From contig CASBQC010000085.1 of NCBI GenBank assembly GCA_949127805.1, positions 1-30,472 of the forward strand: DNA of 30,472 bases. Reading direction: 5' to 3'. Below the pieces are notes generated by a model that saw only the letters and a program-made list of their open reading frames with translations, was not told the DNA's origin and searched no databases. A program made the position numbers and the translations under genes. The stretch comes from Nostocales cyanobacterium PMM_0081 (GTDB lineage Bacteria > Cyanobacteriota > Cyanobacteriia > Cyanobacteriales > Nostocaceae). Below are positions 1 to 27,698 of this stretch, one piece after another (position 1 is the first letter of the stretch; each line of letters begins with the position of its first letter).

Positions 1-17
1 CATAGTAATTAATTGTT

Positions 18-206
18 TTGGCTACGCCAAAAAACATTAATTACTATATCTCTCCACTCCCGCGCATTCATCTCACACCCCGGTATAGTGGGTGTGAGGC
101 TTCTGCTGATCTAGCTAAATTGACAACATCTATTATTGAAAATTGGCAAGGTATCAACGTTAAAGGTGGAAATAATACTATTTCTGGCAATACCTTCAAT
201 TTTTGA
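18..206 (+). pseudogene. Truncated remnant of the N-terminal module ORF preceding NB-ARC/TPR paralog 1
   Basis: Only the Gly/Asn-rich tail (WQGINVKGGNNTISGNTFNF*) resembles the tail of ORF 5992..6423 (VFQGNTFNGTNIF*). All three + frames are closed by stops within nt 1-40, so the long helical part seen in paralog 2 is absent. The ORF ends in a TGA that is in frame with 267..2555. Confidence 0.35.
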
Positions 207-214
207 CCACAGTC

Positions 215-232
215 GTCGGAACGGGAACCGAC
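215..232 (+). promoter_or_regulatory. Small hairpin GTCGG-N8-CCGAC starting 8 nt after the TGA at 204..206
   Basis: 5-bp stem with loop AACGGGAA. The paralogous site 6432..6449 has GTCCG-N8-CGGAC, so the only two substitutions in the element are compensatory. Confidence 0.45.
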
Positions 233-266
233 AAAGTTAAATCCCCTCACCAAAATACCAGATAAT

Positions 267-2555
267 TTGCCCTGGAGTGGGGCGACAAAGTTCGTCGGAC
301 GTGAAAAAGAACTCGCACATCTCCACCAACTATTGCAGGAAAACGACTCTGTAGCAATAGCTGCCGTTGCGGGTATGGGTGGTGTGGGTAAAACTGAATT
401 AGCGTTGCAATATGCACTTTTACAGCGCGAATTTTACTCTGGTGGGATTTGCTGGTGTGGTGTCAAAAGCGGTGATGTGGGTTTGCAAATTGTGCAATTT
501 GCTCGCATTCACTTAGATTTAAACCCCTTGACAGATTTAGATTTAATTGGGCAGGTAAAATACTGTTGGCAGCGCTGGGGTGAGGGTGAAGTGTTGTTAG
601 TGCTGGATGATGTCACTATATATAAGGAAATTCAGCCGTATTTACCGCCTTCATCCTCCCGATTTAAAGTGTTGATGACAACCAGAAAGCACTTCGGGAA
701 GATTCCTAAATTATCATTAGACGTACTGGAACCACAAGCCGCGCTAGATTTGTTGCGAAATCTCGTTAGGAAAGAACGAATTGACCTAACCCCCCTGCCC
801 CCTTCCCTGCAAGGGAAGGGGGAGTTTGATTCCCCTCTCCTTGCAGGAGAGGGGTTAGGGGAGAGGTCAATCGGAGAACTGTTAGCCTTGCAACTGTGTG
901 AAAGGTTGGGATATTTGCCTTTGGGGATAGAGTTAGTTGGACGGTATCTAGCTAGAAAAGAGGATTTGTCCCTCGCAGAAATGTTGCAGAGGTTGGAGAA
1001 AAAGGGACTCAACGAGCGTTCTTTGTCTCAGCGAGAAGACGACATGACAGCACAGCTGGGTGTGCAAGCAGCCTTTGAGTTAAGTTGGGATGAATTAAAC
1101 GACACAGATAAACAACTCGCGTGTTTGCTGAGTTTATTTGCTGCGGCACCGATACCTTGGGAGTTGGTAGAATCTTGCTTACCCGATGTAGATGCAGAAG
1201 AGTTAGAAGAAAGTCGGGACGATATGCTGCTGAATTTGCATTTGCTCCAGCGCAAGGAAAGGGGAATTTATCAACTGCATCCACTGCTGCGAGAATTCTT
1301 TCAAGCGAAGTTGCAAGGGTTAGATGTGGCAGAGGAATTCAAGCGATCGCTTTGTCGAATAATGGTAGCAGTTGCCAAAGATATTCCTGACTCGCTCACC
1401 CTTGAGCAAATCACCATTGTCTCTCCGGCAATACCTCATATAGCTGAAGTAGCAAATCATCTTATTGAATATGTCAGCGATGATGATTTATATTGGGCAT
1501 TGACTGGCAATGGTCAGTTTTACAATGCTCAAGGATTGTATGACAAAGCAGCACTTTGGTATGAGCAGTGTGTAAAAACCACTAAACAACGCTTGGGAGA
1601 AGAACATCCTAATGTCGCCACTAGCCTCAATAACCTCGCGGTACTCTACAGTTACCAAGGCAGATACAGCGAAGCCGAACCCTTACACATCCAAGCTTTG
1701 GCACTCAGGCGCAAACTGCTAGGTGAAGAATATCTTGAGGTTGCAGTTAGCCTCAACAACCTAGCGTTACTCTATTATTTTCAAAGCAAATACAGCGAAG
1801 CCGAACCCTTGTACATACAAGCTTTGGCACTCAAGCGCAAACTGCTAGGTGAAGAACATCTTGATGTCGCACTTAGCCTCAACAACCTAGCGGAACTCTA
1901 TTATTCTCAAGGCAGATACAGCGAAGCCGAACCCTTATACATCCAAGCTTTGGCACTCAGGCGCAAACTGCTAGGTGAAGAACATCCTCATGTCGCACTT
2001 AGCCTCAACAACCTAGGAAAATTTTACAGTTCCCAAAGCAGATACAGCGAAGCCGAACCCTTGTATATCCAAGCTTTGGCACTCAGCCGCAAACTGCTAG
2101 GTGAAGAACATCCTGATGTCGCACTTAGCCTCAACAACCTAGCGTTACTCTATTATTTTCAAAGCAGATACAGCGAAGCCGAACCCTTGTACATCCAAGC
2201 TTTGGCACTCAGGCGCAAACTGCTAGGTGAAGAACATCCTGATGTTGCAGTTAGCCTCAACAACCTAGCGGGATTCTATCGTTCTCAAGGCAGATATAGC
2301 GAAGCCGAACCCTTGTACATACAAGCTTTGGCACTTAACCGCAAACTGCTAGGTGAAGAACATCCCCATGTTGCAGTTAGCCTCAACAACCTAGCGAAGT
2401 TCTACTACTCCCAAACAAGTTACAGCAAAGCTGAACCGTTGTACCTGCAAGCGTTAGATATTTTTGAGCGTCGGTTAGGGGTGAATCATCCCCACACTGT
2501 CAAATGTGGTGAAAATCTGGCAATTCTTCGCGCTGACATGGCTTCACAGCAGTAA
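267..2555 (+). CDS. NB-ARC (APAF-1/R-protein type STAND) NTPase with C-terminal TPR array, paralog 1
   Basis: 762-aa ORF with Walker [12 protein letters not shown], Walker B LLVLDDV and a GLPL-like motif LGYLPLGIELVG. These are followed by seven 42-aa kinesin-light-chain-type TPR units (LGEEHPxVAxSLNNLAxxY). The only start available is TTG at 267, there is no in-frame ATG before the P-loop, and the frame is continuous with the upstream ORF apart from one TGA. Confidence 0.9.
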   Translation: MPWSGATKFVGREKELAHLHQLLQENDSVAIAAVAGMGGVGKTELALQYALLQREFYSGGICWCGVKSGDVGLQIVQFARIHLDLNPLTDLDLIGQVKYCWQRWGEGEVLLVLDDVTIYKEIQPYLPPSSSRFKVLMTTRKHFGKIPKLSLDVLEPQAALDLLRNLVRKERIDLTPLPPSLQGKGEFDSPLLAGEGLGERSIGELLALQLCERLGYLPLGIELVGRYLARKEDLSLAEMLQRLEKKGLNERSLSQREDDMTAQLGVQAAFELSWDELNDTDKQLACLLSLFAAAPIPWELVESCLPDVDAEELEESRDDMLLNLHLLQRKERGIYQLHPLLREFFQAKLQGLDVAEEFKRSLCRIMVAVAKDIPDSLTLEQITIVSPAIPHIAEVANHLIEYVSDDDLYWALTGNGQFYNAQGLYDKAALWYEQCVKTTKQRLGEEHPNVATSLNNLAVLYSYQGRYSEAEPLHIQALALRRKLLGEEYLEVAVSLNNLALLYYFQSKYSEAEPLYIQALALKRKLLGEEHLDVALSLNNLAELYYSQGRYSEAEPLYIQALALRRKLLGEEHPHVALSLNNLGKFYSSQSRYSEAEPLYIQALALSRKLLGEEHPDVALSLNNLALLYYFQSRYSEAEPLYIQALALRRKLLGEEHPDVAVSLNNLAGFYRSQGRYSEAEPLYIQALALNRKLLGEEHPHVAVSLNNLAKFYYSQTSYSKAEPLYLQALDIFERRLGVNHPHTVKCGENLAILRADMASQQ
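785..868 (+). mobile_element. Small palindromic dispersed repeat (MITE-like) inserted in frame inside NB-ARC paralog 1
   Basis: About 84 bp that are absent from paralog 2. It contains two perfect hairpins (CCCCCTTCCCT-GCA-AGGGAAGGGGG and CCCCTCTCCT-TGC-AGGAGAGGGG) plus an outer CTAACCCC/GGGGTTAG pair. It translates as LTPLPPSLQGKGEFDSPLLAGEGLGERS without a stop. Boundaries are approximate. Confidence 0.7.
1593..2474 (+). repeat. Seven tandem 126-bp (42-codon) near-identical TPR-coding units
   Basis: Units start at 1593, 1719, 1845, 1971, 2097, 2223 and 2349. Long stretches are identical at nucleotide level (for example cagatacagcgaagccgaaccctt...caagctttggcactc...cgcaaactgctaggtgaagaacatcct). 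Differences cluster in a few codons. Confidence 0.9.
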
Positions 2556-3213: not shown

Positions 3214-3448
3214 AACCCTTAATCTCAATATTGAGCAAATCATCAGATTAGTGAAGCAACTAGCAATTCCAGAGCAGCATATGATATTGCAAGCCATTAA
3301 AGCAGAGGAAGATACTTGGTGGCAAAATAGACTCAATTACGGAGAGATACAGATGCGTTCTTTGAGTACAACACAAGGACTAAACTGGGATCTTATGACT
3401 GAACAGGAGCGAGAAGAATTCATAGACAATATCTTGCACGAGCAATGA
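3209..3448 (+). CDS. Putative antitoxin partner of the downstream PIN toxin
   Basis: 79-aa ORF whose stop overlaps the PIN gene start by 4 nt (ATGA). An SD-like GAGG lies upstream. No family was recognised. Confidence 0.55.
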   Translation: MATLNLNIEQIIRLVKQLAIPEQHMILQAIKAEEDTWWQNRLNYGEIQMRSLSTTQGLNWDLMTEQEREEFIDNILHEQ

Positions 3449-3852
3449 ACTCTTATATAGTTGTTTTCGATACAAACACGCTTTTTTCGGGTTTAGGTTG
3501 GCAAGGCAGTCCCTATCGTTGTTTAGAACTTGCTAGAAACAGGCAGATTGAATCTATAACTTGTCGAGAGATTTTATTAGAGTTACGCGAAAAGTTGCAG
3601 ACAAAGCAAAATCGTTCTCCGATAGACGCAGCTGTTGATATTGAGCAAATTCTTGCTTTTTCGCGCTTGGTAGAAATTCCCAATAACCTGAAAGTTGTTG
3701 TTGATGATCCTGATGATGATATGGTGATCGAGTGTGCAGTTGTAGGACAAGCAACACATATTATTACAGGTGATAAACACTTACTCTCATTAAATAAATA
3801 TCAGGATATTGATATTGTCAAAGCTGCGGATTTTCTCAATTTGCTTGCTTGA
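3445..3852 (+). CDS. PIN-family toxin (PIN_3 / TIGR00305-like)
   Basis: 135 aa with N-terminal VVFDTN, a central DPDDDMVIECA and C-terminal IITGDKHLL, the typical acidic residues of this PIN subfamily. It is a paralog of 29835..30260. Confidence 0.8.
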   Translation: MNSYIVVFDTNTLFSGLGWQGSPYRCLELARNRQIESITCREILLELREKLQTKQNRSPIDAAVDIEQILAFSRLVEIPNNLKVVVDDPDDDMVIECAVVGQATHIITGDKHLLSLNKYQDIDIVKAADFLNLLA

Positions 3853-5117: not shown

Positions 5118-5477
5118 CTAAAATGGAATCCATTCGAGCCGATTTATCCATTCTTCTGCCTCAGTCGTCTCCCAAACCAGCAAAAGTTCTTGTGACAGTT
5201 CTCCTAATGGTATCCTGTCCCGCACCCAAAATAGTCCCCAAATCTGTCCGCCGGCTGCCCAATGTGCTTCCATATGAGCAGGCATACTAGCACGATTATC
5301 TGTCACCAAGAGCCTTTGCGATCGCTCCAGATATAACAACACATCCGGATCGAGTGTACCTAATTGCGGTGCATTACTTTCACCCACACGTAAGATATCT
5401 ATAGCAGGGTTGAGACGCAGCACAGCCACTTTCAAACGAGGTGATAAATTTTCGTCTAGCAAAAAACGCACTTTCAC
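5118..5477 (-). CDS. DUF5615-family (PIN-like) putative toxin
   Basis: 119 aa starting MKVRFLLDENLSPRL. It overlaps the upstream DUF433 gene by 4 nt. Confidence 0.7.
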   Translation of the reverse strand: MKVRFLLDENLSPRLKVAVLRLNPAIDILRVGESNAPQLGTLDPDVLLYLERSQRLLVTDNRASMPAHMEAHWAAGGQIWGLFWVRDRIPLGELSQELLLVWETTEAEEWINRLEWIPF

Positions 5478-5806
5478 AAAGCATTTACCTGCGGTTGAGT
5501 TCTTTGAGCCTTCACTGCTCTTAAACGTTCTACCACAGGTGAAGGATTAACAGCCCATTCTTGGTAACGCTGTTCGCGCCACTTTGTCAAACGTGACAAG
5601 TAAGCATCAATCTCGGCACGATTATGCAGATAATAAGTAATAGTAGCGTGAATCTGCTCCAAGTTCAAAGAAGGCAAACTAGCTGCAATTTCTTCCGGTG
5701 AATATCCTTCTAAGTAATAATCAAGTACATTATCAATGCCGATGCGGTGTCCTTTCAACCGAATATCATCAGACGATAAAAAGTCAAAATAATCTTCTAA
5801 TAGCAT
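5474..5806 (-). CDS. DUF433-family putative antitoxin
   Basis: 110 aa. The stretch GHRIGIDNVLDYYLEGYSPEEIAASLPSLNLEQIHATITYY matches the DUF433 HTH-like pattern and sits in the usual DUF433-DUF5615 pairing. Confidence 0.7.
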   Translation of the reverse strand: MLLEDYFDFLSSDDIRLKGHRIGIDNVLDYYLEGYSPEEIAASLPSLNLEQIHATITYYLHNRAEIDAYLSRLTKWREQRYQEWAVNPSPVVERLRAVKAQRTQPQVNAL

Positions 5807-5991: not shown

Positions 5992-6423
5992 ATGGAACCT
6001 GTAACACTCACAGCTGTAGCAACAGCGATCGCCACAATAGTTTTAACCAAAGCCCTAGAAAAAACAGGCGAAAAGCTTGGAGAAGCTGCATTAAATGAAA
6101 GTCATAAGTTAATTGAACAGCTACGCAATAAGAATAAGTTACCATTTCTCGCGAATGCAACACAAGAAAACCAAGAGCGATTAGATTATGGCAAAGCAGT
6201 GCTGGAGTTGAAAGCAGCAGCAGATGCAGATACCGAAATTGCCAAATCAGTGCGGTCTGTAGAAGCAGCAGCAAACGCCGATGCACAAGTTGCGCCAAAA
6301 GTCAAAGAGTTAGCAAATGATATCAACTCGCAACCACCAGGCATCATCAATCCGACAAAGTTAGCTGAATCGATTAAAAACGTCTTTCAGGGAAATACTT
6401 TTAACGGTACTAATATCTTTTGA
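5992..6423 (+). CDS. N-terminal helical module ORF preceding NB-ARC/TPR paralog 2
   Basis: ATG at 5992 (the track starts at TTG 5947). It begins with a hydrophobic helix MEPVTLTAVATAIATIVLTKAL, continues with charged or amphipathic helices, and ends in a Gly/Asn-rich tail. The terminal TGA at 6421 is in frame with 6484..8571. No family was recognised with certainty. Confidence 0.6.
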   Translation: MEPVTLTAVATAIATIVLTKALEKTGEKLGEAALNESHKLIEQLRNKNKLPFLANATQENQERLDYGKAVLELKAAADADTEIAKSVRSVEAAANADAQVAPKVKELANDINSQPPGIINPTKLAESIKNVFQGNTFNGTNIF

Positions 6424-6431
6424 CTACAGTC

Positions 6432-6449
6432 GTCCGAACGGGAACGGAC
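6432..6449 (+). promoter_or_regulatory. Small hairpin GTCCG-N8-CGGAC starting 8 nt after the TGA at 6421..6423
   Basis: Same position, loop (AACGGGAA) and spacing as 215..232, with a compensatory C:G versus G:C swap in the stem. Confidence 0.45.
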
Positions 6450-6483
6450 AAAGTTAAATCCCCCCATTATAATACCAGATAAT

Positions 6484-8571
6484 TTGCCCTGGAGTGGAGT
6501 GGCGGAGTTTGTCGGGCGTGAAAAAGAACTCGCACATCTCCACCAACTATTGCAGGACAATCACCAAGTTGCAATAGCGGCGATCGCTGGTATGGGTGGT
6601 GTGGGTAAAACTGAACTTGCGCTGCAATATGCACTTAAGCAGCGCGAATTTTACTCTGGTGGAATTTGCTGGTGTGGTGTCAAAAGCGGTGATGTGGGTT
6701 TGCAAATTGTGCAATTTGCTCGCATTCACCTAGAATTAAACCCCTTGACAGATTTGGATTTAGTCGGGCAGGTAGCATACTGTTGGCAGCGCTGGGGTGA
6801 GGGTGAAGTGTTGTTAGTGCTGGATGATGTCACTATCTATAAGGAAATTCAGCCGTACTTACCGCCTTCATCCACCCGATTTAAGGTGCTGATGACAACC
6901 AGAAAGCACTTCGGGCAGATTTCTAAATTATCATTAGATGTCCTACAACCACAAGCCGCGCTGGATTTGTTGCGAAATCTCGTTGGGGAAGAACGGGTTA
7001 ATGTAGAGACACAGGTTATCGCGTCTCTACCTGAAAGGTTGGGATATTTACCTTTAGGGTTAGAATTAGTAGGGCGGTATCTCGCAAGAAAAGAGGATTT
7101 ATCCCTCACAGAAATGTTGCAGAGGTTGGAGAAAAAGAAACTAAAAGAGCGTTCTTTGTCTCAGCCAGAAGATAACATGACAGCACAGCGGGGTGTGCAA
7201 GCAGCATTCGAGTTAAGTTGGGATGAATTAAACGACACAGATAAACAACTCGCGTGTTTGCTGAGTTTATTTGCTGCGGCACCCATACCTTGGGAGTTGG
7301 TAAAATCTTGCTTAAGTAATGTGGATGCAGAAGAGTTAGAAGAAAGTCGGGATGATAAGCTGCTGAATTTGCATTTGCTACAGCGTAAGCAAAAGGGAAT
7401 TTATCAACTGCATCGACTGCTGCGAGAATTTTTTCAAGGGAAGCTAGAAGCACCACCGTTTCAGGAGAGTTGCGGGAATTTTAAACAAGCTTTTGTCAAA
7501 GTAACGATCGCGATCGCCAAGTATATTCCTCAAACCCCCACCCTTAAATTAATCACCGCTGTCTCCCCTGCTATGCCTCATTTAGCAGAAGTAGCGAAGA
7601 ATTTTATTCAACACATTAGCGATGAAGATTTAATCTGGGCTTTCGTCGCGCAGGGTCGATTTTACAGAGGTCAGGGGTTGTATACTCAGGCAGAACCTTG
7701 GTTTAAGCAGTGTCTAGAAGTTACTAAAAAGCGCTTGGGAGAAAAACATCCCGCTGTTGCAACTAGCCTCAACAACCTAGCAGGACTTTACTCCGACCAA
7801 GGACGTTACGCAGACGCCGAACCTTTGTACCAACAAGCTTTGCAACTAATGCGACATCTTTTGGGAGAAGAACATCCCTATCTTGCACCTAGTCTTAACA
7901 ACCTAGCGTTACTCTACTCTTCCCAAGGACGTTACGCAGATGCCGAACCCCTGTACCAACAAGCTTTAAAAATGAGACGACATCTGTTGGGAGAAGAACA
8001 TCCCGCTGTTGCAGTTAGCCTCAACAACCTAGCGTTACTCCACTATTATCAAGGACGCTATAGTGAAGCCGAACCTCTAGCACTCCGAGCGATAGAACTA
8101 GATAGGCAGTTTTTAGGAGAAAAGTATCCTGATTTAGCTACAGATATTCACAATTTGGCTTTGATATACCGCGCTCAAGGACGCTATAGCGAAGCAGAAC
8201 CATTATTTCTGCAAGCCTTGAAACTCAAACAGCTTCTATTGCCAGAAGACCATCCCCTTTTGGCAGATACTATCTACGCCCTAGGTTATATGTACAGAAT
8301 CCAGGGTTGCTACACTAAAGCAGAAACATTTTCCATAAAAGCATTAGAACTCGATAAACGCTTGCTGGGAGACAACCATCCCTATGTCGCGCAAAGCTTA
8401 AACAATCTGGCAGAACTCTACAAATCCCAAGGAAGTTACAGCCAAGCCGAACCTTTATTGCAACAAGCTTTAGATATTTTTGAGCGACGGTTAGCTGTGA
8501 ATCATCCCCACACTATCACTGTTCGTGAAAATCTGGCAATTCTTCGCGCTGAAATAACTTCACAGCAGTAA
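6484..8571 (+). CDS. NB-ARC (STAND) NTPase with C-terminal TPR array, paralog 2
   Basis: 695 aa with the same Walker A, Walker B and GLPL motifs as paralog 1. The first roughly 340 aa and the last roughly 35 aa are near-identical to paralog 1, while the central TPR units have diverged. The start is TTG only. Confidence 0.9.
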   Translation: MPWSGVAEFVGREKELAHLHQLLQDNHQVAIAAIAGMGGVGKTELALQYALKQREFYSGGICWCGVKSGDVGLQIVQFARIHLELNPLTDLDLVGQVAYCWQRWGEGEVLLVLDDVTIYKEIQPYLPPSSTRFKVLMTTRKHFGQISKLSLDVLQPQAALDLLRNLVGEERVNVETQVIASLPERLGYLPLGLELVGRYLARKEDLSLTEMLQRLEKKKLKERSLSQPEDNMTAQRGVQAAFELSWDELNDTDKQLACLLSLFAAAPIPWELVKSCLSNVDAEELEESRDDKLLNLHLLQRKQKGIYQLHRLLREFFQGKLEAPPFQESCGNFKQAFVKVTIAIAKYIPQTPTLKLITAVSPAMPHLAEVAKNFIQHISDEDLIWAFVAQGRFYRGQGLYTQAEPWFKQCLEVTKKRLGEKHPAVATSLNNLAGLYSDQGRYADAEPLYQQALQLMRHLLGEEHPYLAPSLNNLALLYSSQGRYADAEPLYQQALKMRRHLLGEEHPAVAVSLNNLALLHYYQGRYSEAEPLALRAIELDRQFLGEKYPDLATDIHNLALIYRAQGRYSEAEPLFLQALKLKQLLLPEDHPLLADTIYALGYMYRIQGCYTKAETFSIKALELDKRLLGDNHPYVAQSLNNLAELYKSQGSYSQAEPLLQQALDIFERRLAVNHPHTITVRENLAILRAEITSQQ
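7003..7030 (+). repeat. In-frame GTAGAGAC...GTCTCTAC hairpin repeat inside NB-ARC paralog 2
   Basis: It translates as VETQVIASL. It lies at the same place relative to the GLPL motif where paralog 1 carries the 84-bp element. It has the same stem family as the hairpins at 25691, 25729 and 27313. Confidence 0.55.
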
Positions 8572-8706: not shown

Positions 8707-10056
8707 ATGAGCCTTTCTCTCATTAGTCAGTATCATTTCCTCGATCGCTTTTTTCGACTGGCGATCGCCAACGTTGCCTCTAACATCATGGTGCCCCTGT
8801 CAGGTTTAATTAGTGTGGCTTTCTTAGGACACCTAAAAGAAATCCATCATTTAGCAGGAGTTGCCCTCGCTGGCATCCTATTTAACTACATCTACTTCCT
8901 TTTTACGTTTTTACGGATGGGAACCACTGGGGTAACTGCTCAAACAGTGGGACAGGATGACCGCGAAGAAATGCTGCGAGTAGGACTGCGGAATGGATTA
9001 GTGGCTTTGGGTTTAGGTGTGGCAATCTTGATTTTACAATACCCTATCCGAGAACTGTGGTTTGCCATAGTCAGTGCTACTCCAGAAGTTAAAGCTTCAG
9101 GGATTGACTATTTCAACGTCCGAATTTGGGGAGCGCCGGCGGTTTTGTTTAATTACGTTCTCATTGGTTGGCTGCTGGGACGAGAAATGAGTGGCAAGGT
9201 GTTGCTGATGTCTGTAGTGGGCAACGGTGCTAATCTGGTGTTCGACTACTTCTACATTATCCGATGGGAGTGGGCAAGCACGGGAGCCGGAATTTCTCAG
9301 GCTCTCAGTCAATATTTGATGTTGTTAGTAGGGCTAGTTTTGGCAAGTCAAGACATTCAGTTCAAAGAGTTACAAACAGCATTCCAACAGCTTTGGGATT
9401 GGTTAGCCTTTAAATCTGCTTTTACCCTCAATGGCAATATTTTTGTCCGCTCTTTAGCCAATATGACTACCTGGGCAGTTTTCACTAACATCAGTGCCGT
9501 AATGGGGACGACTGTTTTAGCGGAAAATGCTTTGCTATTTCAGATAGTATGCCTGAGCGTATTCTTTGTCGAAGGAATTGGTTTTGCCACCGAAACCCTC
9601 ACCGGGAATTTTAAAGGTCAGATGGCTAACGACCAATTTATCCCCTTATTGCAGGTTGCAGTAGGAACCAGCCTGTCGGCAGGACTTTCCATAGCGGCAG
9701 CCTGCATCCTTTTTCCTGAAACTATCTTTGGTTTATTATCCGACCATACTGAAATTATCGAGCCAATTAAAGTTTACGTTCCTTGGTTAATCCTCGTTTT
9801 AGGATGTCAGGCTATTGCTAGTAGCCTCGATGGGTACTTCGGAGGTTTAGCGGAAGGGAAACCTATCCGTAACTCCGCTTTATGCGGTGCTTTATTGGGA
9901 TTTGCACCCTTAGCAGTCTGGGCATGGCAAGCTCATAGTAACCAGATTTTGTGGCTGGCTATGTCGGGGTTTATGGTAACTAAAATGGTAGCGATCGCCG
10001 TTCAAGTGCCAAGAACTCTTCAGAATGACACTGAAGCGATCGCCTCTATGGATTAA
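8707..10056 (+). CDS. MATE-family efflux transporter
   Basis: 449 aa, polytopic with about 12 hydrophobic segments. The N-terminal pattern (LAIANVASNIMVPLSGLISVAFLGHL) is typical of DinF/NorM-type MATE proteins. Confidence 0.8.
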   Translation: MSLSLISQYHFLDRFFRLAIANVASNIMVPLSGLISVAFLGHLKEIHHLAGVALAGILFNYIYFLFTFLRMGTTGVTAQTVGQDDREEMLRVGLRNGLVALGLGVAILILQYPIRELWFAIVSATPEVKASGIDYFNVRIWGAPAVLFNYVLIGWLLGREMSGKVLLMSVVGNGANLVFDYFYIIRWEWASTGAGISQALSQYLMLLVGLVLASQDIQFKELQTAFQQLWDWLAFKSAFTLNGNIFVRSLANMTTWAVFTNISAVMGTTVLAENALLFQIVCLSVFFVEGIGFATETLTGNFKGQMANDQFIPLLQVAVGTSLSAGLSIAAACILFPETIFGLLSDHTEIIEPIKVYVPWLILVLGCQAIASSLDGYFGGLAEGKPIRNSALCGALLGFAPLAVWAWQAHSNQILWLAMSGFMVTKMVAIAVQVPRTLQNDTEAIASMD

Positions 10057-10081
10057 TGTCACGAATCTAATTATTAAAATT

Positions 10082-11098
10082 ATGAACTTACCCTCATCGA
10101 GCCGACTACAGCTTACGCCAGACTTGAATATCTGCCGTATATTAAATGGAATGTGGCAAGTATCTGGCAAGCATGGAGCAATTGACTCCACCAGCGCTAT
10201 TCAGACTATGTTCGATTATATAGATGCTGGTTTCACTACTTGGGATTTGGCAGATATTTACGGTCCAGCAGAAGATTTTATCGGTCAATTTCGGCATCAA
10301 CTAGCTACAATTCGAGGACAAGAAGCTTTATCTAATATTCAAGCCTTCACCAAATGGGTGCCAAAACCTACTCCCATGACTAAGCAGTTTGTTGAGGAGC
10401 AAATTAATATTTCCCGCCAAAGGATGGGAGTTAAAACTCTCGATTTATTGCAATTCCACTGCTGGAGATACCAAGATAACAACTATCTGGATGCCCTCAA
10501 GTATTTGTCAGAACTTCAGGAAGAGGGCAAAATCAAACACCTTGGCTTAACCAACTTTGATACCGAACACTTGCAGGAGATTGTTGAGGCTGGAATTAAT
10601 ATTGTTTCCCATCAGGTACAGTTTTCTCTTATCGATCGCCGTCCGGAAGTGAACATGATACCATTATGTCTGGAAAAGAATATCAAGCTATTCACCTATG
10701 GCACTCTCTGCGGTGGCTTTTTGTCAGAGAAGTTTTTGGGACAACCCGAACCTCAAGCAGAACAGCTTTCTACCGCTAGCTTGAAGGAATATAAAATCAT
10801 TATTGACAAATGGGGTGGTTGGGGTTTATTTCAAGAATTGCTGACTGTACTATCTTCTATTGCCACCAAACATGGAGTTAGCATTTCTAATATTGCAGTT
10901 CGCTATGTCCTCGATAAACCTGCGGTAGCTGGTGCGATCGTTGGTGCGAGGTTAGGGATATCAGAGCATTTAAAGGATAATGCTAGAGTATTTGATTTGA
11001 TGCTGGATACAGAAGACCTTGACCAAATTAATGCTGTGTTAAAAAACTCACATAATTTGTATAACTTCATCGGTGATTGTGGGGACGAATTAAGATAG
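10082..11098 (+). CDS. Aldo/keto reductase
   Basis: The ATG at 10082 is preferred over the track start at 10025, which overlaps the MATE gene. AKR-type motifs are present (GFTTWDLADIYGPAE, HLGLTNFD, VSHQVQFSL). Confidence 0.8.
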   Translation: MNLPSSSRLQLTPDLNICRILNGMWQVSGKHGAIDSTSAIQTMFDYIDAGFTTWDLADIYGPAEDFIGQFRHQLATIRGQEALSNIQAFTKWVPKPTPMTKQFVEEQINISRQRMGVKTLDLLQFHCWRYQDNNYLDALKYLSELQEEGKIKHLGLTNFDTEHLQEIVEAGINIVSHQVQFSLIDRRPEVNMIPLCLEKNIKLFTYGTLCGGFLSEKFLGQPEPQAEQLSTASLKEYKIIIDKWGGWGLFQELLTVLSSIATKHGVSISNIAVRYVLDKPAVAGAIVGARLGISEHLKDNARVFDLMLDTEDLDQINAVLKNSHNLYNFIGDCGDELR

Positions 11099-12049
11099 AT
11101 CGTAATCACAATAGGCTAAATAAGGTTGTAACTGCTTAAGAATTTTCTCAGAATTTTTTTTCACTTCTGGTAACAAGTTAAGCGGACGTGGTTCGCTTAA
11201 TTTGTCATATTCTAAAGTGACTTTTGCGGATAAACCCAGAAATTTCAAAATGTTTTGGATAGTTGTTTCTGGTTGATCGCAGAGGTCTTCATAGCTGACA
11301 GAAATATAATTATGTTGGGGTAGCGATTCAACATTATTCAAGAAAAAATTTACCTCTTCTATATACTTTTTAGTAATGCGATGCAAACCCTGCTCAAAAT
11401 ATTGAGAATAAGATAGCCACTTAAAAGCACGTTGCCAGGGGTTGTCAACCAGACTTTGATAGTCTTTACTAATTAATGCTACATAAGGATTCTTTTTCAA
11501 CCAAAGATTACGGTTAGCTTTCAACCAAGAATTAATTACTGGAATTGGATGTCGGTGAATGAAAATGAATTTAGCTTCTGGAAAAGTCTTTTTAATAAAC
11601 AAAAATGGTTGGAAATACGGAGACTTAAGCAATAAGGGTTGGTTAGTTTTGGAGATAAATTGAATCTTCTGGCACAGCTCGATAAATCGGTCTAAGTTGC
11701 TTGATTTGAGGTTAAATTCATACTCACTAATTGCAAAAGCATACTCTTCCGGTAAATCTGGAGTTACTTTAACTTGATCAATACCGCGAGTATTAATCCC
11801 TAGAGAGTAAAAATATTTTTCTAACTCTTGTTTTGCTTTAGTTTCTATCTGATTAAAATGATTATAAAGCAGTTCATCATATTTGATAATCTGATAAGCA
11901 CTAACAAAATTAAAACACTCAGTTGCCACCAAAGCTTGGTACAAAAAAGTTGTCCCCGAACGTGGAAATCCCATAATAAATATCGGCTTAAAATCAACTG
12001 ACGATAGTAAGTCCAGGTAGGGGCGATCGGCAATACCATTAATAGTCAT
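11090..12049 (-). CDS. Sulfotransferase-family protein
   Basis: 319 aa with the 5'-PSB loop GFPRSGTTFLYQ. It is the last gene of the minus-strand operon, and its 3' end overlaps the AKR 3' end by 9 nt. Confidence 0.8.
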   Translation of the reverse strand: MTINGIADRPYLDLLSSVDFKPIFIMGFPRSGTTFLYQALVATECFNFVSAYQIIKYDELLYNHFNQIETKAKQELEKYFYSLGINTRGIDQVKVTPDLPEEYAFAISEYEFNLKSSNLDRFIELCQKIQFISKTNQPLLLKSPYFQPFLFIKKTFPEAKFIFIHRHPIPVINSWLKANRNLWLKKNPYVALISKDYQSLVDNPWQRAFKWLSYSQYFEQGLHRITKKYIEEVNFFLNNVESLPQHNYISVSYEDLCDQPETTIQNILKFLGLSAKVTLEYDKLSEPRPLNLLPEVKKNSEKILKQLQPYLAYCDYDLS

Positions 12050-12065
12050 TTCTTACTCGAACTAA

Positions 12066-12842
12066 TTAAACATGACCGTAATAGTCGCGGTGAACGACCA
12101 CAGAATAAGCATAATCTAATAGCGTCCCCGCACTAAATACTGGAACATCAATTGCTCGTTGAATAGCGCGGGCAAAGGGTGGAAGTCCAGTACACTCTAG
12201 TACCATAGCCCCCATATTGGGATGAGCTTGATAAAAGTCAACAGCGAATTCTACCAACTCTTTTTCCAATAGGTTATAGTCAGCTTGACGCACACTCGCT
12301 TCTGGGTACATATATAAATCCATGAATCCCGAACAGCAATCCGCTTCTTTGATGCCAGCTAGGACATAATTGCTACCTGGTTGGATGCCCACAGCTTTGA
12401 GGTGAGCTTCTGTCAGAAAATCCTTGAATGCTACCATAACACCTACTACTTTGTTGGCACCAACAATTTGTTGCGCTAAGGGAACTTGCAATAGGGTTGA
12501 CATGAAAGCAGGAACATCAACTGACTCAGCAATTTCTTTTTGAAAGTATCCAAAGTAGCCACACTCGCTGACAATTGCACGACAGCCAATTTTTTCTAAC
12601 TTTTTCGCCGCCCGTTTTATCGCTTCCAGACAGGGCGACTTGTCTTCTGCCCAAATTAAAGCTTGAGCATCTATTCCCTCAGCTATCTCGTATTGCATGG
12701 GAAACGGGTAAGCACTGGCATTTCGCACATCACCTGGAAAACCGGGATTAATCCAATCTAAAATAATCACACCTAAACCCATCCCATAGCAAAGGTGATT
12801 TTTACGAGTTTTAATTGATTTGATTCCTAAATCTCGATACAT
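12066..12842 (-). CDS. Asp/Glu/hydantoin-racemase superfamily protein
   Basis: 258 aa with GVIILDWINPGFPGDVRNASAYPFPMQY and two Cys motifs (SECGYF and LECTGLPPF) typical of this two-thiol fold. Confidence 0.65.
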   Translation of the reverse strand: MYRDLGIKSIKTRKNHLCYGMGLGVIILDWINPGFPGDVRNASAYPFPMQYEIAEGIDAQALIWAEDKSPCLEAIKRAAKKLEKIGCRAIVSECGYFGYFQKEIAESVDVPAFMSTLLQVPLAQQIVGANKVVGVMVAFKDFLTEAHLKAVGIQPGSNYVLAGIKEADCCSGFMDLYMYPEASVRQADYNLLEKELVEFAVDFYQAHPNMGAMVLECTGLPPFARAIQRAIDVPVFSAGTLLDYAYSVVVHRDYYGHV

Positions 12843-12863
12843 TCTCCCTCAAAATAAATCATA

Positions 12864-13619
12864 CTAAACACCCACAATCATCTTCACTGTTACTGGTTCC
12901 CCATCTAAACCAAATTGCTCCTTAGTATGGTCAATGGTGTCTGGATCTACATAAGTTCCAAAGATGCGATCGAACAATGTGAATAGAGCGCCTAGATTTT
13001 TACCATGAAATTGGGGATTAGACAAATGATGTACATGGTGGTAGCGCGGCGTAGCAATAATCCATTCCACTACTTTCATCCAAGAGCGCCATTTAACATT
13101 GAGATGACACATAGTATTATGAACTGATGCAACAACACCAAATAAAATTATTATTTGGGCAGGAATTGCCAGCAGTGGAAACCACAAAATTGTACTTCTC
13201 AATATCCATCTACTGACCAAGCTAGATTTTTGTCCACTTAGCCACCACATTTTTTCTATTGAATGATGCCATTTATGGGTTTGCCAGAATAATCGACTAT
13301 TGTGCATTTGCCAATGAATAACATAGAGACTGAGTTCTCTTAAGAAAATAGCAATAATAATTCTTATAAATAGGGGAATAGATAAAACGTTTGTCCAGCC
13401 TACTGCTTCTATCAGCGATGGGGGAATGACTAGGTTTTGCAAAGGAGAATAAGCATAGGCAACAATGACGATATACACCATCATTATTGCAGCACTTTTA
13501 GATTCCTTGAGAGCTTCGCCTGAATACTTTATTTCTTGTGAAGGGTCTTTTTTTTCCCAAATCCAGAGTACAATACCTGGAATAAACAGCATTGACCATG
13601 CTATAACTAAATCGCGCAT
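12864..13619 (-). CDS. Fatty-acid hydroxylase / sterol-desaturase-family membrane oxygenase
   Basis: 251 aa and hydrophobic, with the histidine boxes HWQMHN, HKWHH and HHVHH. Confidence 0.8.
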   Translation of the reverse strand: MRDLVIAWSMLFIPGIVLWIWEKKDPSQEIKYSGEALKESKSAAIMMVYIVIVAYAYSPLQNLVIPPSLIEAVGWTNVLSIPLFIRIIIAIFLRELSLYVIHWQMHNSRLFWQTHKWHHSIEKMWWLSGQKSSLVSRWILRSTILWFPLLAIPAQIIILFGVVASVHNTMCHLNVKWRSWMKVVEWIIATPRYHHVHHLSNPQFHGKNLGALFTLFDRIFGTYVDPDTIDHTKEQFGLDGEPVTVKMIVGV

Positions 13620-13644
13620 CAGTTACCTCCCTGTTGATTTTTAC

Positions 13645-14979: not shown

Positions 14980-14982
14980 AAA

Positions 14983-22630: not shown

Positions 22631-23194
22631 TTAGAAAACTACATCTTCGTAAAGCTCGGCTATTGTGACTTCAAAGTTAATACTGTGTAGTCGAAATGAT
22701 TTATTTTCTGCTGTGTAAAATTGCAAAACCCATAGCCCTTCATCATTACGGCGGAAACAATCGACTCGTTGACGTTTGGTGTTAATTAAAACATACTCTT
22801 TGAGACTTGATAAAGTTTGGTAATCGGCGAATTTGTCTCCCCGGTCAAAGGCTTCAGTAGAGTTAGATAACACCTCGACAATTAAACAGGGAAAACTTTT
22901 ATACGCAGGAGTTTCCTGATCTCGTCGATCGCAAGTCACCATGACATCGGGATAGTAATATCGATTTATAGATTCGATGCGTGCTTTCATGTCGGCGATG
23001 TAAACACGACAACCTGAGCCACGTACATGATTACGTAGAAGTGTAGCAAAGTTGAGAGCAATGGTGACGTGGGAATCAAGCGCTCCAGCCATTGCGTAGA
23101 TGTAGCCGTCGATGTATTCATGTTTGATGTCGCTGTGTTCCTCCATTTGGAGGTATTCGTCAGGGGTGAAGTAAATTTCAGGTGAAGCAACCAT
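22631..23194 (-). CDS. Uma2-family (DUF820) endonuclease
   Basis: 187 aa. The motifs YFTPDEYLQMEE, KHEYIDGYIYAMAG, YYPDVMVTCD and LIVEVLSNST follow the PD-(D/E)xK Uma2 pattern. Confidence 0.85.
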   Translation of the reverse strand: MVASPEIYFTPDEYLQMEEHSDIKHEYIDGYIYAMAGALDSHVTIALNFATLLRNHVRGSGCRVYIADMKARIESINRYYYPDVMVTCDRRDQETPAYKSFPCLIVEVLSNSTEAFDRGDKFADYQTLSSLKEYVLINTKRQRVDCFRRNDEGLWVLQFYTAENKSFRLHSINFEVTIAELYEDVVF

Positions 23195-27575: not shown

Positions 27576-27698
27576 TATTTTTGCATTGGTATAAATTCAA
27601 TCAACAAGCGCTTTTGGGCTATCTTTTTTCTGACCGGAATTGGAAAATCTGAAAGTGTAATCTATTACCATGTAGATGTCGCAACTTTGCAGGTTAAA

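What the first reader, a model, noticed from the sequence alone, without database searches (positions are those of the whole stretch)
5992..6560. In-frame UGA-C stop plus covarying hairpin splits an N-terminal module from the NB-ARC/TPR body in both paralogs
ORF 5992..6423 and the NB-ARC ORF 6484..8571 are in the same frame. They are separated by a single TGA (6421) and 60 nt of open frame (LQSSERERTKLNPPIIIPDN-LPWSG). The same layout recurs at 204..266 upstream of paralog 1. Neither NB-ARC ORF has an ATG before its P-loop, only a TTG with no obvious SD. Both stops are followed by C (TGA-CTA and TGA-CCA). UGA followed by C is an inefficient termination context in E. coli and in eukaryotes. Eight nt after each stop is a 5-bp hairpin with an identical loop (AACGGGAA). 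The only two substitutions between the copies in that element are compensatory (GTCGG/CCGAC versus GTCCG/CGGAC). The stop-spacer-structure layout resembles viral readthrough signals. From memory (not checked here), single-polypeptide cyanobacterial STAND proteins run from an N-terminal domain through such a Gly/Asn-rich linker into NLPxSG-FVGRE. Taken together, this suggests dosed UGA readthrough that yields a minor effector-NB-ARC-TPR fusion alongside separate products. Alternatives are coupled reinitiation at the TTG, or a shared ancestral nonsense mutation that is tolerated.
Basis: partly seen in the sequence, partly recalled or inferred. Interest (0 to 1): 0.8.

Follow-up and report, generated by a model that had tools for sequence, protein, structure and literature searches.

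The report
Leaky stop codon links effector, sensor
In filamentous cyanobacteria, a small gene for a predicted membrane-attacking "Bell" protein ends in a UGA stop that is followed, in the same reading frame, by a conserved RNA hairpin and a large NLR-type immune sensor, so ribosomes probably sometimes read through the stop to make an effector-sensor fusion; I found no description of such programmed read-through for bacterial chromosomal genes.

Summary
The 143-aa ORF 5992..6423 belongs to a Bell-like family: an N-terminal hydrophobic helix (MEPVT...), a helical body and a C-terminal G/N/Q-rich motif.

I evaluated 120 family loci from many Nostocales genera and from metagenomes.
- 101 end in TGA and continue in the same frame for at least 100 codons into NB-ARC/TPR, NACHT/HEAT or other bodies.
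- The next base is C in 98 of those 101.
- 90 of the 101 have a perfect 5-bp hairpin exactly 8 nt after the stop.
- The hairpin occurs in 15 arm combinations and shows extensive compensatory change. A second helix, which would make it a pseudoknot, is probable.
- All net length differences preserve the frame. A coding signature resumes before any canonical start codon in many loci.

A sister subfamily ends in TAA or TAG. It has no hairpin and no in-frame continuation. In the seven loci where a downstream ATG-started ORF could be read, that protein carries its own N-terminal copy of the Bell C-terminal motif. This is the published two-gene amyloid-signalling layout.

In cassette loci the sensor has no copy of its own (0 of 100). 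It could acquire the motif only by read-through.

Programmed UGA read-through is the best explanation (about 0.75). No experiment has tested it. I found no prior description.

The parts
5992..6423 (+). Bell-like effector ORF (143 aa, P0001), including its TGA stop
   Evidence: it belongs to a family of about 394 clusters at 50% identity, nearly all 130-160 aa. The N-terminus MEPVTLTAVATAIATIVLTKALEKTGE resembles the Bell 'MEPIS' motif. The AlphaFold2 model is all-helical with pLDDT 68. There is no Pfam or PDB hit.
6358..6420 (+). C-terminal G/N/Q-rich motif KLAESIKNVFQGNTFNGTNIF, a candidate amyloid-signalling (BASS-like) motif
   Evidence: Coordinates are. In sister loci the same kind of motif is repeated at the sensor's N-terminus.
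6421..6424 (+). UGA stop plus the +4 C, the proposed recoding site
   Evidence: 101 loci have TGA with a long in-frame continuation. The +4 base is C in 98, G in 2 and T in 1. No TAA or TAG locus is in frame.
6424..6431 (+). 8-nt spacer CTACAGTC
   Evidence: The spacer is 8 nt in every locus with a perfect hairpin at that position (90 of the 101). The first codon after the stop is CTA/CTG/CTC/TTG (Leu), or CCA/CCG.
6432..6449 (+). Stem 1 hairpin: GTCCG (6432-6436), loop AACGGGAA (6437-6444), CGGAC (6445-6449)
   Evidence: 98.6% of cells paired, with compensatory changes at 3 of 5 pairs; 15 arm combinations. G-U pairs show that the structure is on the sense RNA strand.
6440..6462 (+). Candidate pseudoknot stem 2: loop GGGA (6440-6443) pairing with TCCC (6459-6462). 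The A-rich connecting loop AAAGTTAAA lies at 6450-6458.
   Evidence: 78.9% of cells paired, with GC to AU double changes; 62 of 77 distinct sequences have at least 4 Watson-Crick pairs there (mean longest helix 4.14 versus 3.05 in shuffles). At least 12 helix types occur, including GAGA:TCTC, GGGAG:CTCCC, ATGAA:TTCAT and AGGC:GCCT.
6424..8571 (+). Read-through extension: a linker followed by the NB-ARC/TPR sensor body (715 codons plus stop). NB-ARC lies at about 6520-7173 and the TPRs at about 7621-8553.
6484..6501 (+). Possible internal start codons TTG 6484 and GTG 6499, which would allow a sensor-only product
   Evidence: Neither position is conserved across the family as a start codon.
204..245 (+). 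Paralog 1 cassette: TGA 204-206, spacer 207-214, stem 1 GTCGG 215-219 / CCGAC 228-232, loop 220-227, stem 2 GGGA 223-226 / TCCC 242-245
207..2555 (+). Paralog 1 read-through extension: NB-ARC/TPR body, 782 codons plus stop
9..203 (+). Remnant of the paralog 1 upstream ORF. Only the C-terminal motif region ...IENWQGINVKGGNNTISGNTFNF looks Bell-like.
   Evidence: It resembles the C-terminus of the family member P0238.

Best explanation
The locus is one translational unit with a programmed leaky stop.

Most ribosomes terminate at UGA-C and release a free 143-aa Bell-like effector. This protein has a predicted membrane-targeting helical domain and a C-terminal amyloid-like motif.

A minority decode the UGA and continue in frame through a short linker into the NB-ARC/TPR sensor. 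The product is a Bell-motif-NLR fusion. Decoding is most likely by a near-cognate tRNA such as tRNA-Trp (inferred).

Two features are proposed to promote read-through. One is the weak UGA-C context. The other is an RNA hairpin, probably the first stem of a compact H-type pseudoknot, starting 8 nt after the stop. That places it at the mRNA entrance of a ribosome whose A site holds the UGA.

The functional rationale is inferred. In the classical two-gene amyloid-signalling layout, the NLR carries its own N-terminal copy of the effector's C-terminal motif. In this layout a single copy serves both proteins, and read-through efficiency fixes the ratio of sensor to effector.

Shown here: conservation of the stop, its context, the frame and the RNA structure, and the complementary distribution with the two-gene layout. 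Inferred: that read-through occurs, its efficiency, the residue inserted, and amyloid templating.
For: 1. Stop and frame. 101 of 120 family loci have TGA followed by at least 100 open codons in the same frame (at least 40 where the locus ends first). None of the 11 TAA/TAG loci does.
2. Context. The +4 base is C in 98 of the 101.
3. Frame maintenance through length changes.
   - The distance from TGA to FVGR is 25, 26, 27, 28 or 29 codons. The distance from TGA to YVPLGL is 46, 47 or 49 codons.
   - Loop lengths of 5, 8 and 11 nt differ by multiples of 3.
   - A 9-nt loop in L087/L088 shifts the frame in which the conserved AAAGTTAAATCCCC is read, yet the ORF stays open for more than 800 codons.
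4. Modularity. The cassette joins the Bell ORF to different bodies: NB-ARC/TPR, NACHT/HEAT, NB-ARC/APAF1_C, NB-ARC plus a phycobilisome-protein domain, and an FGE-sulfatase-domain protein.
5. RNA structure. Stem 1 is 98.6% paired with compensatory changes at 3 of 5 pairs. For stems 1 and 2 tested together, 0 of 500 shuffles reach the observed values. RNAalifold agrees on stem 1, and its G-U pairs place the structure on the sense strand. Stem 2 is supported by several helix types.
6. No canonical start before conserved sensor sequence in L040, L048, L049, L055, L041, L077, L050, L073, L078 and L080. The synonymous fraction of single-nucleotide codon differences rises from 0.22 (codons 1-12) to 0.42 (13-23) and 0.59 (24-48) in the NACHT class, and from 0.28 to 0.45 to 0.73 in the NB-ARC class.
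7. No sense-codon version was seen among the listed homologues: the best 120 of 221 hits, and the best 150 of 394 representative clusters. The one apparent fusion, P0003, is a gene call that read TGA as Trp.
8. The sister subfamily ends in TAA or TAG (one in TGA-A) and has no hairpin. Where a downstream ATG-started ORF could be read, it lies 27-391 nt away in varying frame. In 7 of 7 such loci the downstream protein repeats the Bell C-terminal motif at its N-terminus (z = 7-15). In cassette loci, 0 of 100 have a second copy (maximum z 2.8). Sensor sequences next to the junction are nearly the same in the two layouts, for example L114 versus L117 and L102 versus L129.
9. The signature is specific. 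96 of 97 occurrences in 748 kb are at Bell junctions, and there are 0 matches in viral contigs.
Against: - There is no protein-level or ribosome-profiling evidence. Efficiency is unknown.
- The stem is only 5 bp, and the segment does not fold better than shuffles (z -0.3 to -1.1).
- To my knowledge, structure-stimulated read-through has not been demonstrated on bacterial ribosomes.
- Most NB-ARC-class loci keep a GTG or TTG 3-8 codons before FVGR, including both paralogs here. A separately initiated sensor is therefore possible.
- In paralog 2 there is a promoter-like CGGACA-17-TATAAT at 6445-6473. The number of such sites in the region is no higher than in shuffles, and the site is not conserved in paralog 1 or in the Nostoc class.
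- The first 12-15 codons after the stop show no amino-acid-level constraint. That fits RNA constraint, but it also fits non-translation.
- 11 of the 101 in-frame loci lack a perfect stem 1. One NACHT subgroup (L110, L113, L118, L119) has only a degenerate version.
- The assignment to the Bell family rests on sequence features and context, not on an HMM or a fold match.
Confidence: 0.75

Rival explanations
1. There are two separate proteins and no fusion. Ribosomes terminate at UGA, and the sensor is made by reinitiation or independent initiation at the nearby TTG/GTG or at a non-canonical codon. The conserved RNA structure serves coupling, pausing or control of sensor translation.
For: A GTG or TTG lies 3-8 codons before FVGR in most NB-ARC-class loci. 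Annotators place sensor starts there. Codons 1-15 after the stop show no coding signature. Published Bell/NLR pairs often overlap or lie within 10 bp of each other, which suggests coupling.
Against: - It does not explain why the frame is kept in 101 loci through many length changes.
- It does not explain why the spacer never contains an in-frame stop, or why only TGA-C is used.
- Several loci have no canonical start before conserved sensor sequence, and the coding signature starts at about codon 13-16.
- Under this model the sensor would have no N-terminal signalling motif. The sister two-gene loci all have one.
Confidence: 0.12
2. The conserved junction element has a role outside translation. 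It could be an RNA processing or stability site, or a shared sequence that promotes recombinational shuffling of effector and sensor modules. The in-frame arrangement would then be inherited from a fused ancestor.
For: Similarity between the two paralogs starts exactly at TTTTGAC. The same junction sequence joins different Bell C-termini to different sensor classes, which implies module exchange at or near the junction. A possible outer helix UGACU:AGUYA would sequester the stop codon.
Against: - G-U pairs and strand-specific covariation point to RNA rather than DNA.
- Inheritance alone does not keep the frame through repeated length changes. Nor does it keep TGA from drifting to TAA/TAG or to a sense codon across sequences with only 50-60% protein identity.
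- The outer helix shows no compensatory change.
Confidence: 0.07
3. The UGA is recoded by dedicated machinery: selenocysteine insertion with the hairpin acting as a SECIS element, or a genome-encoded opal suppressor tRNA.
For: UGA followed closely by a hairpin is the layout of bacterial SECIS elements.
Against: [quoted passage not shown]
- No tRNA with a UCA anticodon was found in 61 cyanobacterial species (PMC6933170).
- There is no tRNA in the window and no Rfam match at the junction.
- No homologue with Cys at this position was seen.
- The site is a linker, not a redox centre.
Confidence: 0.03
4. The arrangement is decay. An all-in-one Bell-NLR gene acquired a nonsense mutation that is tolerated, and the copies are pseudogenes or split genes with no selected read-through.
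For: Some loci are clearly decaying: L001, L047, L071, L105, L076 and L085.
Against: The same stop, context and structure are kept in about 100 loci across many genera, with intact sensor ORFs of 600-1000 codons. No intact sense-codon ancestor or revertant was found. The compensatory changes in the hairpin indicate purifying selection on the element.
Confidence: 0.03

Closest known systems
Murine leukaemia virus gag-pol read-through signal (UAG, 8-nt spacer, H-type pseudoknot)
   Same: An in-frame stop separates an abundant upstream product from a rarer fusion. The spacer is 8 nt, followed by a compact pseudoknot. The ratio of the two products is set by read-through. (MuLV properties are from my own knowledge and PMC4178896, listed.)
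   Different: MuLV uses UAG rather than UGA, eukaryotic ribosomes and eRF1, and a larger pseudoknot. Here the stems are 5 bp and 4-5 bp, the host is a bacterium, and the genes are chromosomal immune-type genes. Stem 2 is only probable.
Alphavirus-type and mammalian 'UGA-C / UGA-CUA(G)' leaky stops, some with a 3' stem-loop
   Same: The stop is UGA followed by C. In many loci here, including paralog 2, it is followed by CUA (UGA CUA CAG). A downstream structure begins about 8 nt away. (From my own knowledge; PMC4132726 and 10.64898/2026.07.14.738498 are listed.)
   Different: Those signals act on eukaryotic termination. Nothing shows that the CUA(G) context works the same way with bacterial RF2.
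Phage Q-beta coat/A1 protein UGA read-through
   Same: This is a bacterial translation system. A UGA is read by a near-cognate tRNA at a few per cent, giving a minor extended protein that is essential. (From my own knowledge.)
   Different: The Q-beta signal is not known to need a downstream structure, and it is in a phage gene. Here the element is structured, conserved and chromosomal.
Bell/BASS-NLR two-gene amyloid-signalling pairs (Dyrka et al., bioRxiv 10.1101/2020.01.06.895854) and fungal HET-S/NWD2
   Same: A small helical effector carries a C-terminal G/N/Q-rich motif and sits next to, and collinear with, an NB-ARC or NACHT sensor. These systems are found in filamentous cyanobacteria. 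A sister subfamily of the same protein family shows exactly this layout.
   Different: In the cassette loci the sensor has no motif copy and no conserved start of its own. Effector and sensor are joined by a TGA and an RNA structure. Neither paper on these systems mentions stop codons or read-through.
Bacterial SECIS elements
   Same: Both have a UGA followed within about 10-20 nt by a hairpin inside the coding frame.
   Different: No Sec machinery or tRNA-Sec has been reported in cyanobacteria. There are no Cys homologues and no Rfam hit. The loop sequence is variable and pairs downstream.
E. coli dnaX programmed -1 frameshift
   Same: A bacterial chromosomal gene gives two products in a set ratio through a recoding site with a downstream hairpin. 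(From my own knowledge; reviewed in PMC5009743, listed.)
   Different: dnaX uses frameshifting on a slippery heptamer, and the recoded product is the shorter one. Here there is no slippery site, the frame is unchanged, and the recoded product is the longer one.

Membership tests
Programmed stop-codon read-through | The ORF continues in the same frame past the stop, and this is conserved across relatives, including through length changes | tested here: met
   101 of 120 loci. Spacer lengths are 25-29 codons to FVGR and 46, 47 or 49 codons to YVPLGL, all in frame. The +1 loop change in L087/L088 is compensated downstream.
Programmed stop-codon read-through | The region after the stop evolves as coding sequence | tested here: inconclusive
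   The synonymous fraction is 0.22-0.28 in codons 1-12/15, where RNA structure dominates and no coding signal is visible. It rises to 0.42-0.45 from codon 13-16 and to 0.59-0.73 further on. The signal is therefore met from about codon 13, but not immediately after the stop.
Programmed stop-codon read-through | A specific leaky stop and 3' context are conserved | tested here: met
   TGA in all 101 in-frame loci. The +4 base is C in 98, G in 2 and T in 1. Sister loci without an in-frame continuation use TAA, TAG or TGA-A.
Programmed stop-codon read-through | A stimulatory RNA structure at a fixed short distance, supported by covariation | tested here: met
   An 8-nt spacer. Stem 1 is 98.6% paired, with compensatory changes at 3 of 5 pairs and 15 arm combinations.
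Programmed stop-codon read-through | The extended protein is detected, and read-through depends on the signal | not testable with these tools
   This needs a reporter assay, western blot, mass spectrometry or ribosome profiling. Literature searches found no such data.
H-type RNA pseudoknot | A second helix between the hairpin loop and downstream sequence, with covariation and sterically feasible loops | tested here: inconclusive
   78.9% of cells are paired and two pairs show double changes. 62 of 77 distinct sequences have at least 4 Watson-Crick pairs, in at least 12 helix types. Loop lengths are plausible: L1 of 2-3 nt, L2 of 0-3 nt, and an A-rich L3 of 8-9 nt. However, the register slips in some clades, the helix is absent in L083, and relatedness was not fully controlled.
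Bell-domain effector with amyloid-signalling motif (Dyrka et al. 2020) | A helical domain of about 100 aa with a conserved hydrophobic N-terminal helix (MEPIS-like motif) | tested here: inconclusive
   The N-terminus is MEP(V/L)T... followed by a hydrophobic helix. The AlphaFold2 model has seven helices, pLDDT 68. There is no Pfam, NCBIfam or PDB match by sequence or fold. The family's accessions were not found in the paper's supplements.
Bell-domain effector with amyloid-signalling motif (Dyrka et al. 2020) | The same 15-25-aa motif at the effector C-terminus and at the N-terminus of the adjacent NLR | tested here: not met
   In cassette loci, including both window paralogs, 0 of 100 have a second copy after the TGA. 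In the sister subfamily it is met in 7 of 7 loci (z = 7-15). The window locus is therefore a variant of the published architecture rather than a member of it.
Bell-domain effector with amyloid-signalling motif (Dyrka et al. 2020) | The motif forms amyloid and templates the effector | not testable with these tools
   This needs fibril assays or in vivo prion-type assays like those in the cited papers.
Selenocysteine recoding (bacterial SECIS) | SelA/SelB/tRNA-Sec present, and Cys in homologues at the UGA position | tested here: not met
   The homologue criterion was tested here: no Cys or any other sense codon occurs at the UGA position in the listed homologues. There is no tRNA in the window and no Rfam hit. 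The literature reports no Sec trait and no UCA-anticodon tRNA in cyanobacteria. The source genome itself could not be searched for selA/selB/selC.
NLR / STAND sensor | An NB-ARC or NACHT NTPase followed by repeats | tested here: met
   NB-ARC plus TPR_12/TPR_10 in both paralogs. Related loci have NACHT/HEAT, NB-ARC/TPR or NB-ARC/APAF1_C.

The most novel reading that the evidence does not exclude
Read-through here may be more than a fixed-ratio device. It may be the arming or sensing step of a bacterial cell-death system.

The UGA-C plus pseudoknot would make production of the Bell-motif-NLR fusion depend on the state of translation termination. The fusion is the only form of the sensor that carries the amyloid-like motif able to template the free effector. 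Relevant conditions would include RF2 activity, tRNA pools and translational stress or infection. Perturbed translation would then raise the level of armed sensor.

A related observation: in Anabaena, loss of the repressor TrcR, which controls a stress-induced tRNA operon, raises stop-codon read-through in reporters (PMC10272220).
Probability: 0.12. Interest if true: 0.95.

Novelty: new variant of a known kind. Interest (0 to 1): 0.88.

Why it matters
If confirmed, this would be a family-wide, structure-assisted programmed stop-codon read-through in bacterial chromosomal genes. To my knowledge that mode of recoding is established only for viruses, a phage and eukaryotic genes.

It would also explain a class of bacterial NLR-type sensors that appear to lack both an N-terminal effector or signalling module and a conserved start codon. 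It would add a third architecture to bacterial amyloid-signalling systems: one gene and two products, alongside the two-gene and all-in-one layouts.

It has a practical consequence for annotation. About a hundred loci in Nostocales are currently annotated as two unrelated genes with uncertain sensor starts.

It is directly testable in the genetic model Anabaena sp. PCC 7120, which carries a cassette locus.

The compact signal of about 45 nt could serve as a tunable read-through element for bacterial synthetic biology.

Tried and rejected
- **Selenocysteine or a suppressor tRNA.** Rejected on the literature, the lack of a tRNA in the window, the lack of an Rfam hit and the absence of Cys homologues.
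- **Apparent natural fusion P0003 (198 aa, W at the stop).** The DNA has TGA. The gene caller used a code that reads TGA as Trp.
- **Long family members P0186, P0244 and P0189.** These are distant fusions to other domains and lack the linker. They are not sense-codon versions.
- **Microcoleus locus L082.** It has TGA-C and an in-frame ORF, but no hairpin, and the downstream TM/PPC protein has its own ATG. I did not count it as a cassette.
- **Folding energy.** It gives no signal.
- **Fold and sequence searches of the Bell model against the PDB.** Nothing significant.
- **Link to the published Bell set through accession numbers.** The Nostoc punctiforme NIES-2108 protein here is RCJ37669.1, not the RCJ33357.1 shown in the paper. 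Neither accession was found in the held supplements.
- **Metagenome scan with a broad alignment (A4).** It was repeated with a subfamily alignment (A5).
- **Outer helix UGACU:AGUYA.** Conserved, but with no compensatory change, so it is left as a possibility.
- **DNA-level palindrome or recombination site.** Disfavoured by the G-U pairs.
- **Internal promoter in paralog 2.** Not conserved, and the number of promoter-like sites is within chance expectation.
- **Cassette in viral contigs.** No matches.

Full report
**1. The observation**

- ORF 5992..6423 (143 aa) ends in TGA at 6421. It is followed by 60 open nucleotides and then TTG 6484 of the NB-ARC/TPR ORF (to 8571), all in one frame.
- Paralog 1 repeats the layout: TGA 204, TTG 267..2555.
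- Both stops are followed by C.
- Eight nt after each stop is a 5-bp stem with loop AACGGGAA. The two differences between the copies are compensatory (GTCCG/CGGAC versus GTCGG/CCGAC).

Four details needed correcting.
- Paralog 2 also has an in-frame GTG at 6499.
- The ORF upstream of paralog 1 is only a 65-codon remnant, cut off by two hairpin repeats and the contig end.
- DNA similarity between the paralogs starts abruptly at TTTTGAC.
- The hairpin is not energetically unusual on its own.

**2. What the small ORF is**

The small ORF has no Pfam or NCBIfam match. It does belong to a large family of stand-alone proteins of 130-160 aa in filamentous cyanobacteria.
- A word-seeded search found 221 hits.
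- An exhaustive profile search found 394 clusters at 50% identity.
- Only a few long, distant members are fused to other domains.

Members share an N-terminal MEP(V/L)T motif with a hydrophobic helix, a helical body (AlphaFold2 pLDDT 68), and a variable C-terminal G/N/Q-rich motif. This matches the description of Bell domains with C-terminal amyloid-signalling (BASS) motifs next to NLR genes (bioRxiv 10.1101/2020.01.06.895854 and 10.1101/2024.11.07.622273). I could not confirm membership by HMM, fold or accession.

**3. Family-wide conservation of stop, context and frame**

I collected 80 loci from a genome collection and 53 from metagenomes, plus individual look-ups. Of these, 120 were evaluated.
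- 101 end in TGA and continue in the same frame for at least 100 codons, or for at least 40 codons to the end of the held sequence.
- The next base is C in 98 of these, G in 2 and T in 1.
- 8 have TGA with a decayed downstream frame.
- 11 end in TAA or TAG, and none of these continues in frame.

The genera include Nostoc, Anabaena, Nodularia, Calothrix, Tolypothrix, Hassallia, Spirirestis, Scytonema, Brasilonema, Aetokthonos, Fischerella, Aulosira, Halotia and Aliinostoc. The chromosome of the Anabaena sp. PCC 7120 type is also included.

The downstream bodies differ: NB-ARC/TPR, NACHT/HEAT, NB-ARC/APAF1_C, NB-ARC with a phycobilisome-protein domain, and an FGE-sulfatase-domain protein.

Length changes keep the frame.
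- The distance from TGA to FVGR is 25-29 codons. The distance from TGA to YVPLGL is 46, 47 or 49 codons.
- Loop lengths of 5, 8 and 11 nt differ by multiples of 3.
- In L087/L088 a 9-nt loop shifts the frame in which the conserved AAAGTTAAATCCCC is read, yet the ORF stays open for more than 800 codons.

No sense-codon version was found among the listed homologues. The single apparent fusion, P0003, was a gene call that read TGA as Trp.

**4. The RNA element**

Across 72 distinct junctions, the stem that starts 8 nt after the stop is 98.6% paired.
- Compensatory changes occur at three of five pairs: C-G/U-A in 17 sequences; C-G/U-A/G-C in 28; G-C/C-G in 8.
- For the combined two-helix structure (this stem plus the candidate stem 2), none of 500 column shuffles reaches the observed values. 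Slid registers collapse to about 30-50% pairing.
- RNAalifold predicts the same stem.
- With the metagenomic loci added there are 15 arm combinations.
- Many pairs are G-U, so the structure belongs to the sense-strand RNA.
- The amino acids encoded here co-vary (S...T versus P...V) because the nucleotides must pair. The synonymous fraction in codons 1-15 is near the neutral expectation (0.22-0.28). This segment is therefore constrained as RNA, not as protein.

A second helix is probable. It joins the loop (GGGA, GGGAG, GAGA, AGGA, ATGAA, AGGC and others) to a segment about 9 nt downstream of the stem (TCCC, CTCCC, TCTC, TCCT, TTCAT, GCCT and others).
- 78.9% of cells are paired in the fixed register, with double changes.
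- 62 of 77 distinct sequences have at least 4 Watson-Crick pairs when the register may slip. The mean longest helix is 4.14 versus 3.05 in shuffles.
- With L1 of 2-3 nt, L2 of 0-3 nt and an A-rich L3 of 8-9 nt, this would be a compact H-type pseudoknot.

A possible outer helix, UGACU:AGUYA, is conserved but shows no compensatory change.

The element matches no Rfam family. Its overall signature is specific: 96 of 97 occurrences in 748 kb of held DNA are at Bell junctions, and there are none in viral contigs.

**5. Is the region after the stop translated?**

- From about codon 13-16 the synonymous fraction rises to 0.42-0.45, and then to 0.59-0.73 in the sensor domain.
- In many loci this is upstream of the first canonical start codon. 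L040, L048, L049 and L055 have none before codon 72. L050 has none before 76, L073 before 130, L041 before 42 and L077 before 39. All of these lie beyond the conserved landmark.
- Most NB-ARC-class loci, including the window's, do keep a GTG or TTG just before FVGR. A sensor-only product cannot be excluded there.

**6. The sister architecture**

This comparison gives the arrangement a functional rationale.
- A subfamily of the same Bell family (C-terminus ...KIG.VVMPGGTGNIENMSF) ends in TAA or TAG, with one locus ending in TGA-A. It has no hairpin.
- Where a downstream ATG-started ORF could be read, it lies 27-391 nt from the stop, in varying frame.
- In the seven such loci, the downstream protein begins with a copy of the Bell C-terminal motif. 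An example is MNDNFSKLADKIGAVALPGGTVQVNTQNIDGQKKLTPTKDIPYRGSLHFVGRE. Local alignment gives z = 7-15, and 0 of 500 shuffles reach the score.
- This is the published two-gene amyloid-signalling layout.
- The sequence after the motif (KLTPxKDIPYRGSLHFVGRETELTTIHEDLRRGNYVAITGM) is nearly the same as that after the cassette in read-through-type loci such as L117. L102 and L129 correspond in the same way.
- In 100 cassette loci, none has a second motif copy within 80 residues after the TGA (maximum z 2.8).

The two layouts are therefore complementary. Either the sensor has its own start and its own motif, or it sits in frame behind the effector's motif, separated by UGA-C and the RNA structure.

**7. 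Mechanism proposed**

*Shown:* the anatomy and its conservation.

*Inferred:*
- Most ribosomes terminate and release free Bell effector.
- A fraction read the UGA, probably through a near-cognate tRNA, and make Bell-motif-linker-NLR.
- UGA-C is the weakest RF2 context in E. coli (my own knowledge).
- The structure, 8 nt downstream, would sit at the mRNA entrance when the UGA is in the A site. The geometry matches that of viral read-through and frameshift stimulators.
- The fusion would be the form of the sensor that can nucleate the motif's fold on oligomerisation and recruit free effector. Read-through efficiency would set the stoichiometry.

**8. Rivals**

- Reinitiation without any fusion (0.12) does not explain the frame, the stop identity or the missing motif.
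- A non-translational RNA or DNA role (0.07) is disfavoured by frame maintenance and by G-U covariation.
- Selenocysteine or a suppressor tRNA (0.03) conflicts with the reported absence of the Sec trait and of UCA-anticodon tRNAs in cyanobacteria.
- Decay (0.03) conflicts with conservation across about 100 loci.

**9. Prior knowledge**

Eight full-text searches were run, five of them aimed at a prior description. Three key papers on bacterial NLRs, Bell domains and conflict systems in multicellular bacteria were checked for mentions of stop codons, read-through or recoding. None describes this arrangement. The library does not hold all journals, so prior description cannot be excluded.

**10. 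Verdict**

The finding is real. The phenomenon is a family-wide recoding cassette rather than a quirk of two paralogs. It remains a prediction until a fusion product or stem-dependent read-through is demonstrated. Anabaena sp. PCC 7120 offers a direct test.

Noticed in passing
window 1-98: There are two hairpin-forming inverted repeats at the contig end: 2-19/30-47 (18 nt, 89% complementary) and 72-80/90-98 (9 nt, perfect). They replace the body of the Bell ORF upstream of paralog 1. This looks like a small mobile or dispersed repeat that also broke the assembly.
   Followed up: partly
window 789-881: Paralog 1 carries an in-frame insertion of about 31 codons (TPLPPSLQGKGEFDSPLLAGEGLGERS...) inside its NB-ARC region. 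It consists of two G/C-rich palindromic units (CCCTTCCCTGCAAGGGAAGGG and CCCCTCTCCTTGCAGGAGAGGGG). This resembles a small dispersed cyanobacterial repeat translated within a gene. Paralog 2 lacks it.
   Followed up: partly
window 3445-3852 (+), 5118-5806 (-), 29835-30260 (-): Toxin-antitoxin-like genes flank the NLR paralogs: PIN_3 at 3445-3852, a DUF5615/DUF433 pair at 5118-5806, and another PIN_3 at 29835-30260. A Uma2 endonuclease-like gene lies at 22631-23194.
   Followed up: no
window 8707-16122: A run of genes resembles a small tailoring or biosynthetic cluster: a MatE exporter, an aldo/keto reductase, a sulfotransferase, a racemase-like protein, a fatty-acid hydroxylase, a cytochrome P450, and a 379-aa protein with no Pfam hit.
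   Followed up: no
window 27687-29477 (+): A 596-aa ORF (TTG start) has a GUN4-like domain only at its C-terminus (residues 419-571). The N-terminal 400 residues have no Pfam match.
   Followed up: no
L050 3436-5421: A cassette-linked sensor consists of NB-ARC plus DUF7779 and a C-terminal phycobilisome-protein (globin-like) domain in place of TPR or HEAT repeats. This is an unusual candidate ligand-sensing module.
   Followed up: no
L084 909-2108: Here the cassette (TGA-G, 8-nt spacer, GCCCG/CGGGT, loop-downstream pairing ATGAA:TTCAT) joins a Bell ORF to a protein with an FGE-sulfatase-type domain and no recognisable NTPase. The cassette is therefore not restricted to NLR bodies.
   Followed up: partly
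L087/L088 junction; alignment A3 columns 39-51: The nucleotide string AAAGTTAAATCCCC after stem 1 is read in a different frame in L087/L088 because of a 9-nt loop, yet it is conserved. This shows that the string is under RNA-level rather than protein-level selection.
   Followed up: yes
window 6421-6425 with 6452-6456; alignment A3 columns 7-11 with 41-45: The stop codon plus two bases (UGACU) can pair with AGUYA just after stem 1. This is 97.8% paired across 72 junctions, with G-U to G-C variation only. It would sequester the stop codon in the free mRNA. Its role is unknown.
   Followed up: partly
window 6445-6473: There are promoter-like hexamers CGGACA-17-TATAAT (10 of 12 positions match) inside the linker of paralog 2. 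They are not conserved in paralog 1 or in other clades, and the number of such sites in the region is within chance expectation.
   Followed up: partly
L082 3501-4889 (Microcoleus): A Bell family member ends in TGA-C and is in frame with a downstream membrane/PPC-domain protein that has its own ATG. There is no hairpin. This may be a chance in-frame arrangement or a different kind of linkage.
   Followed up: partly
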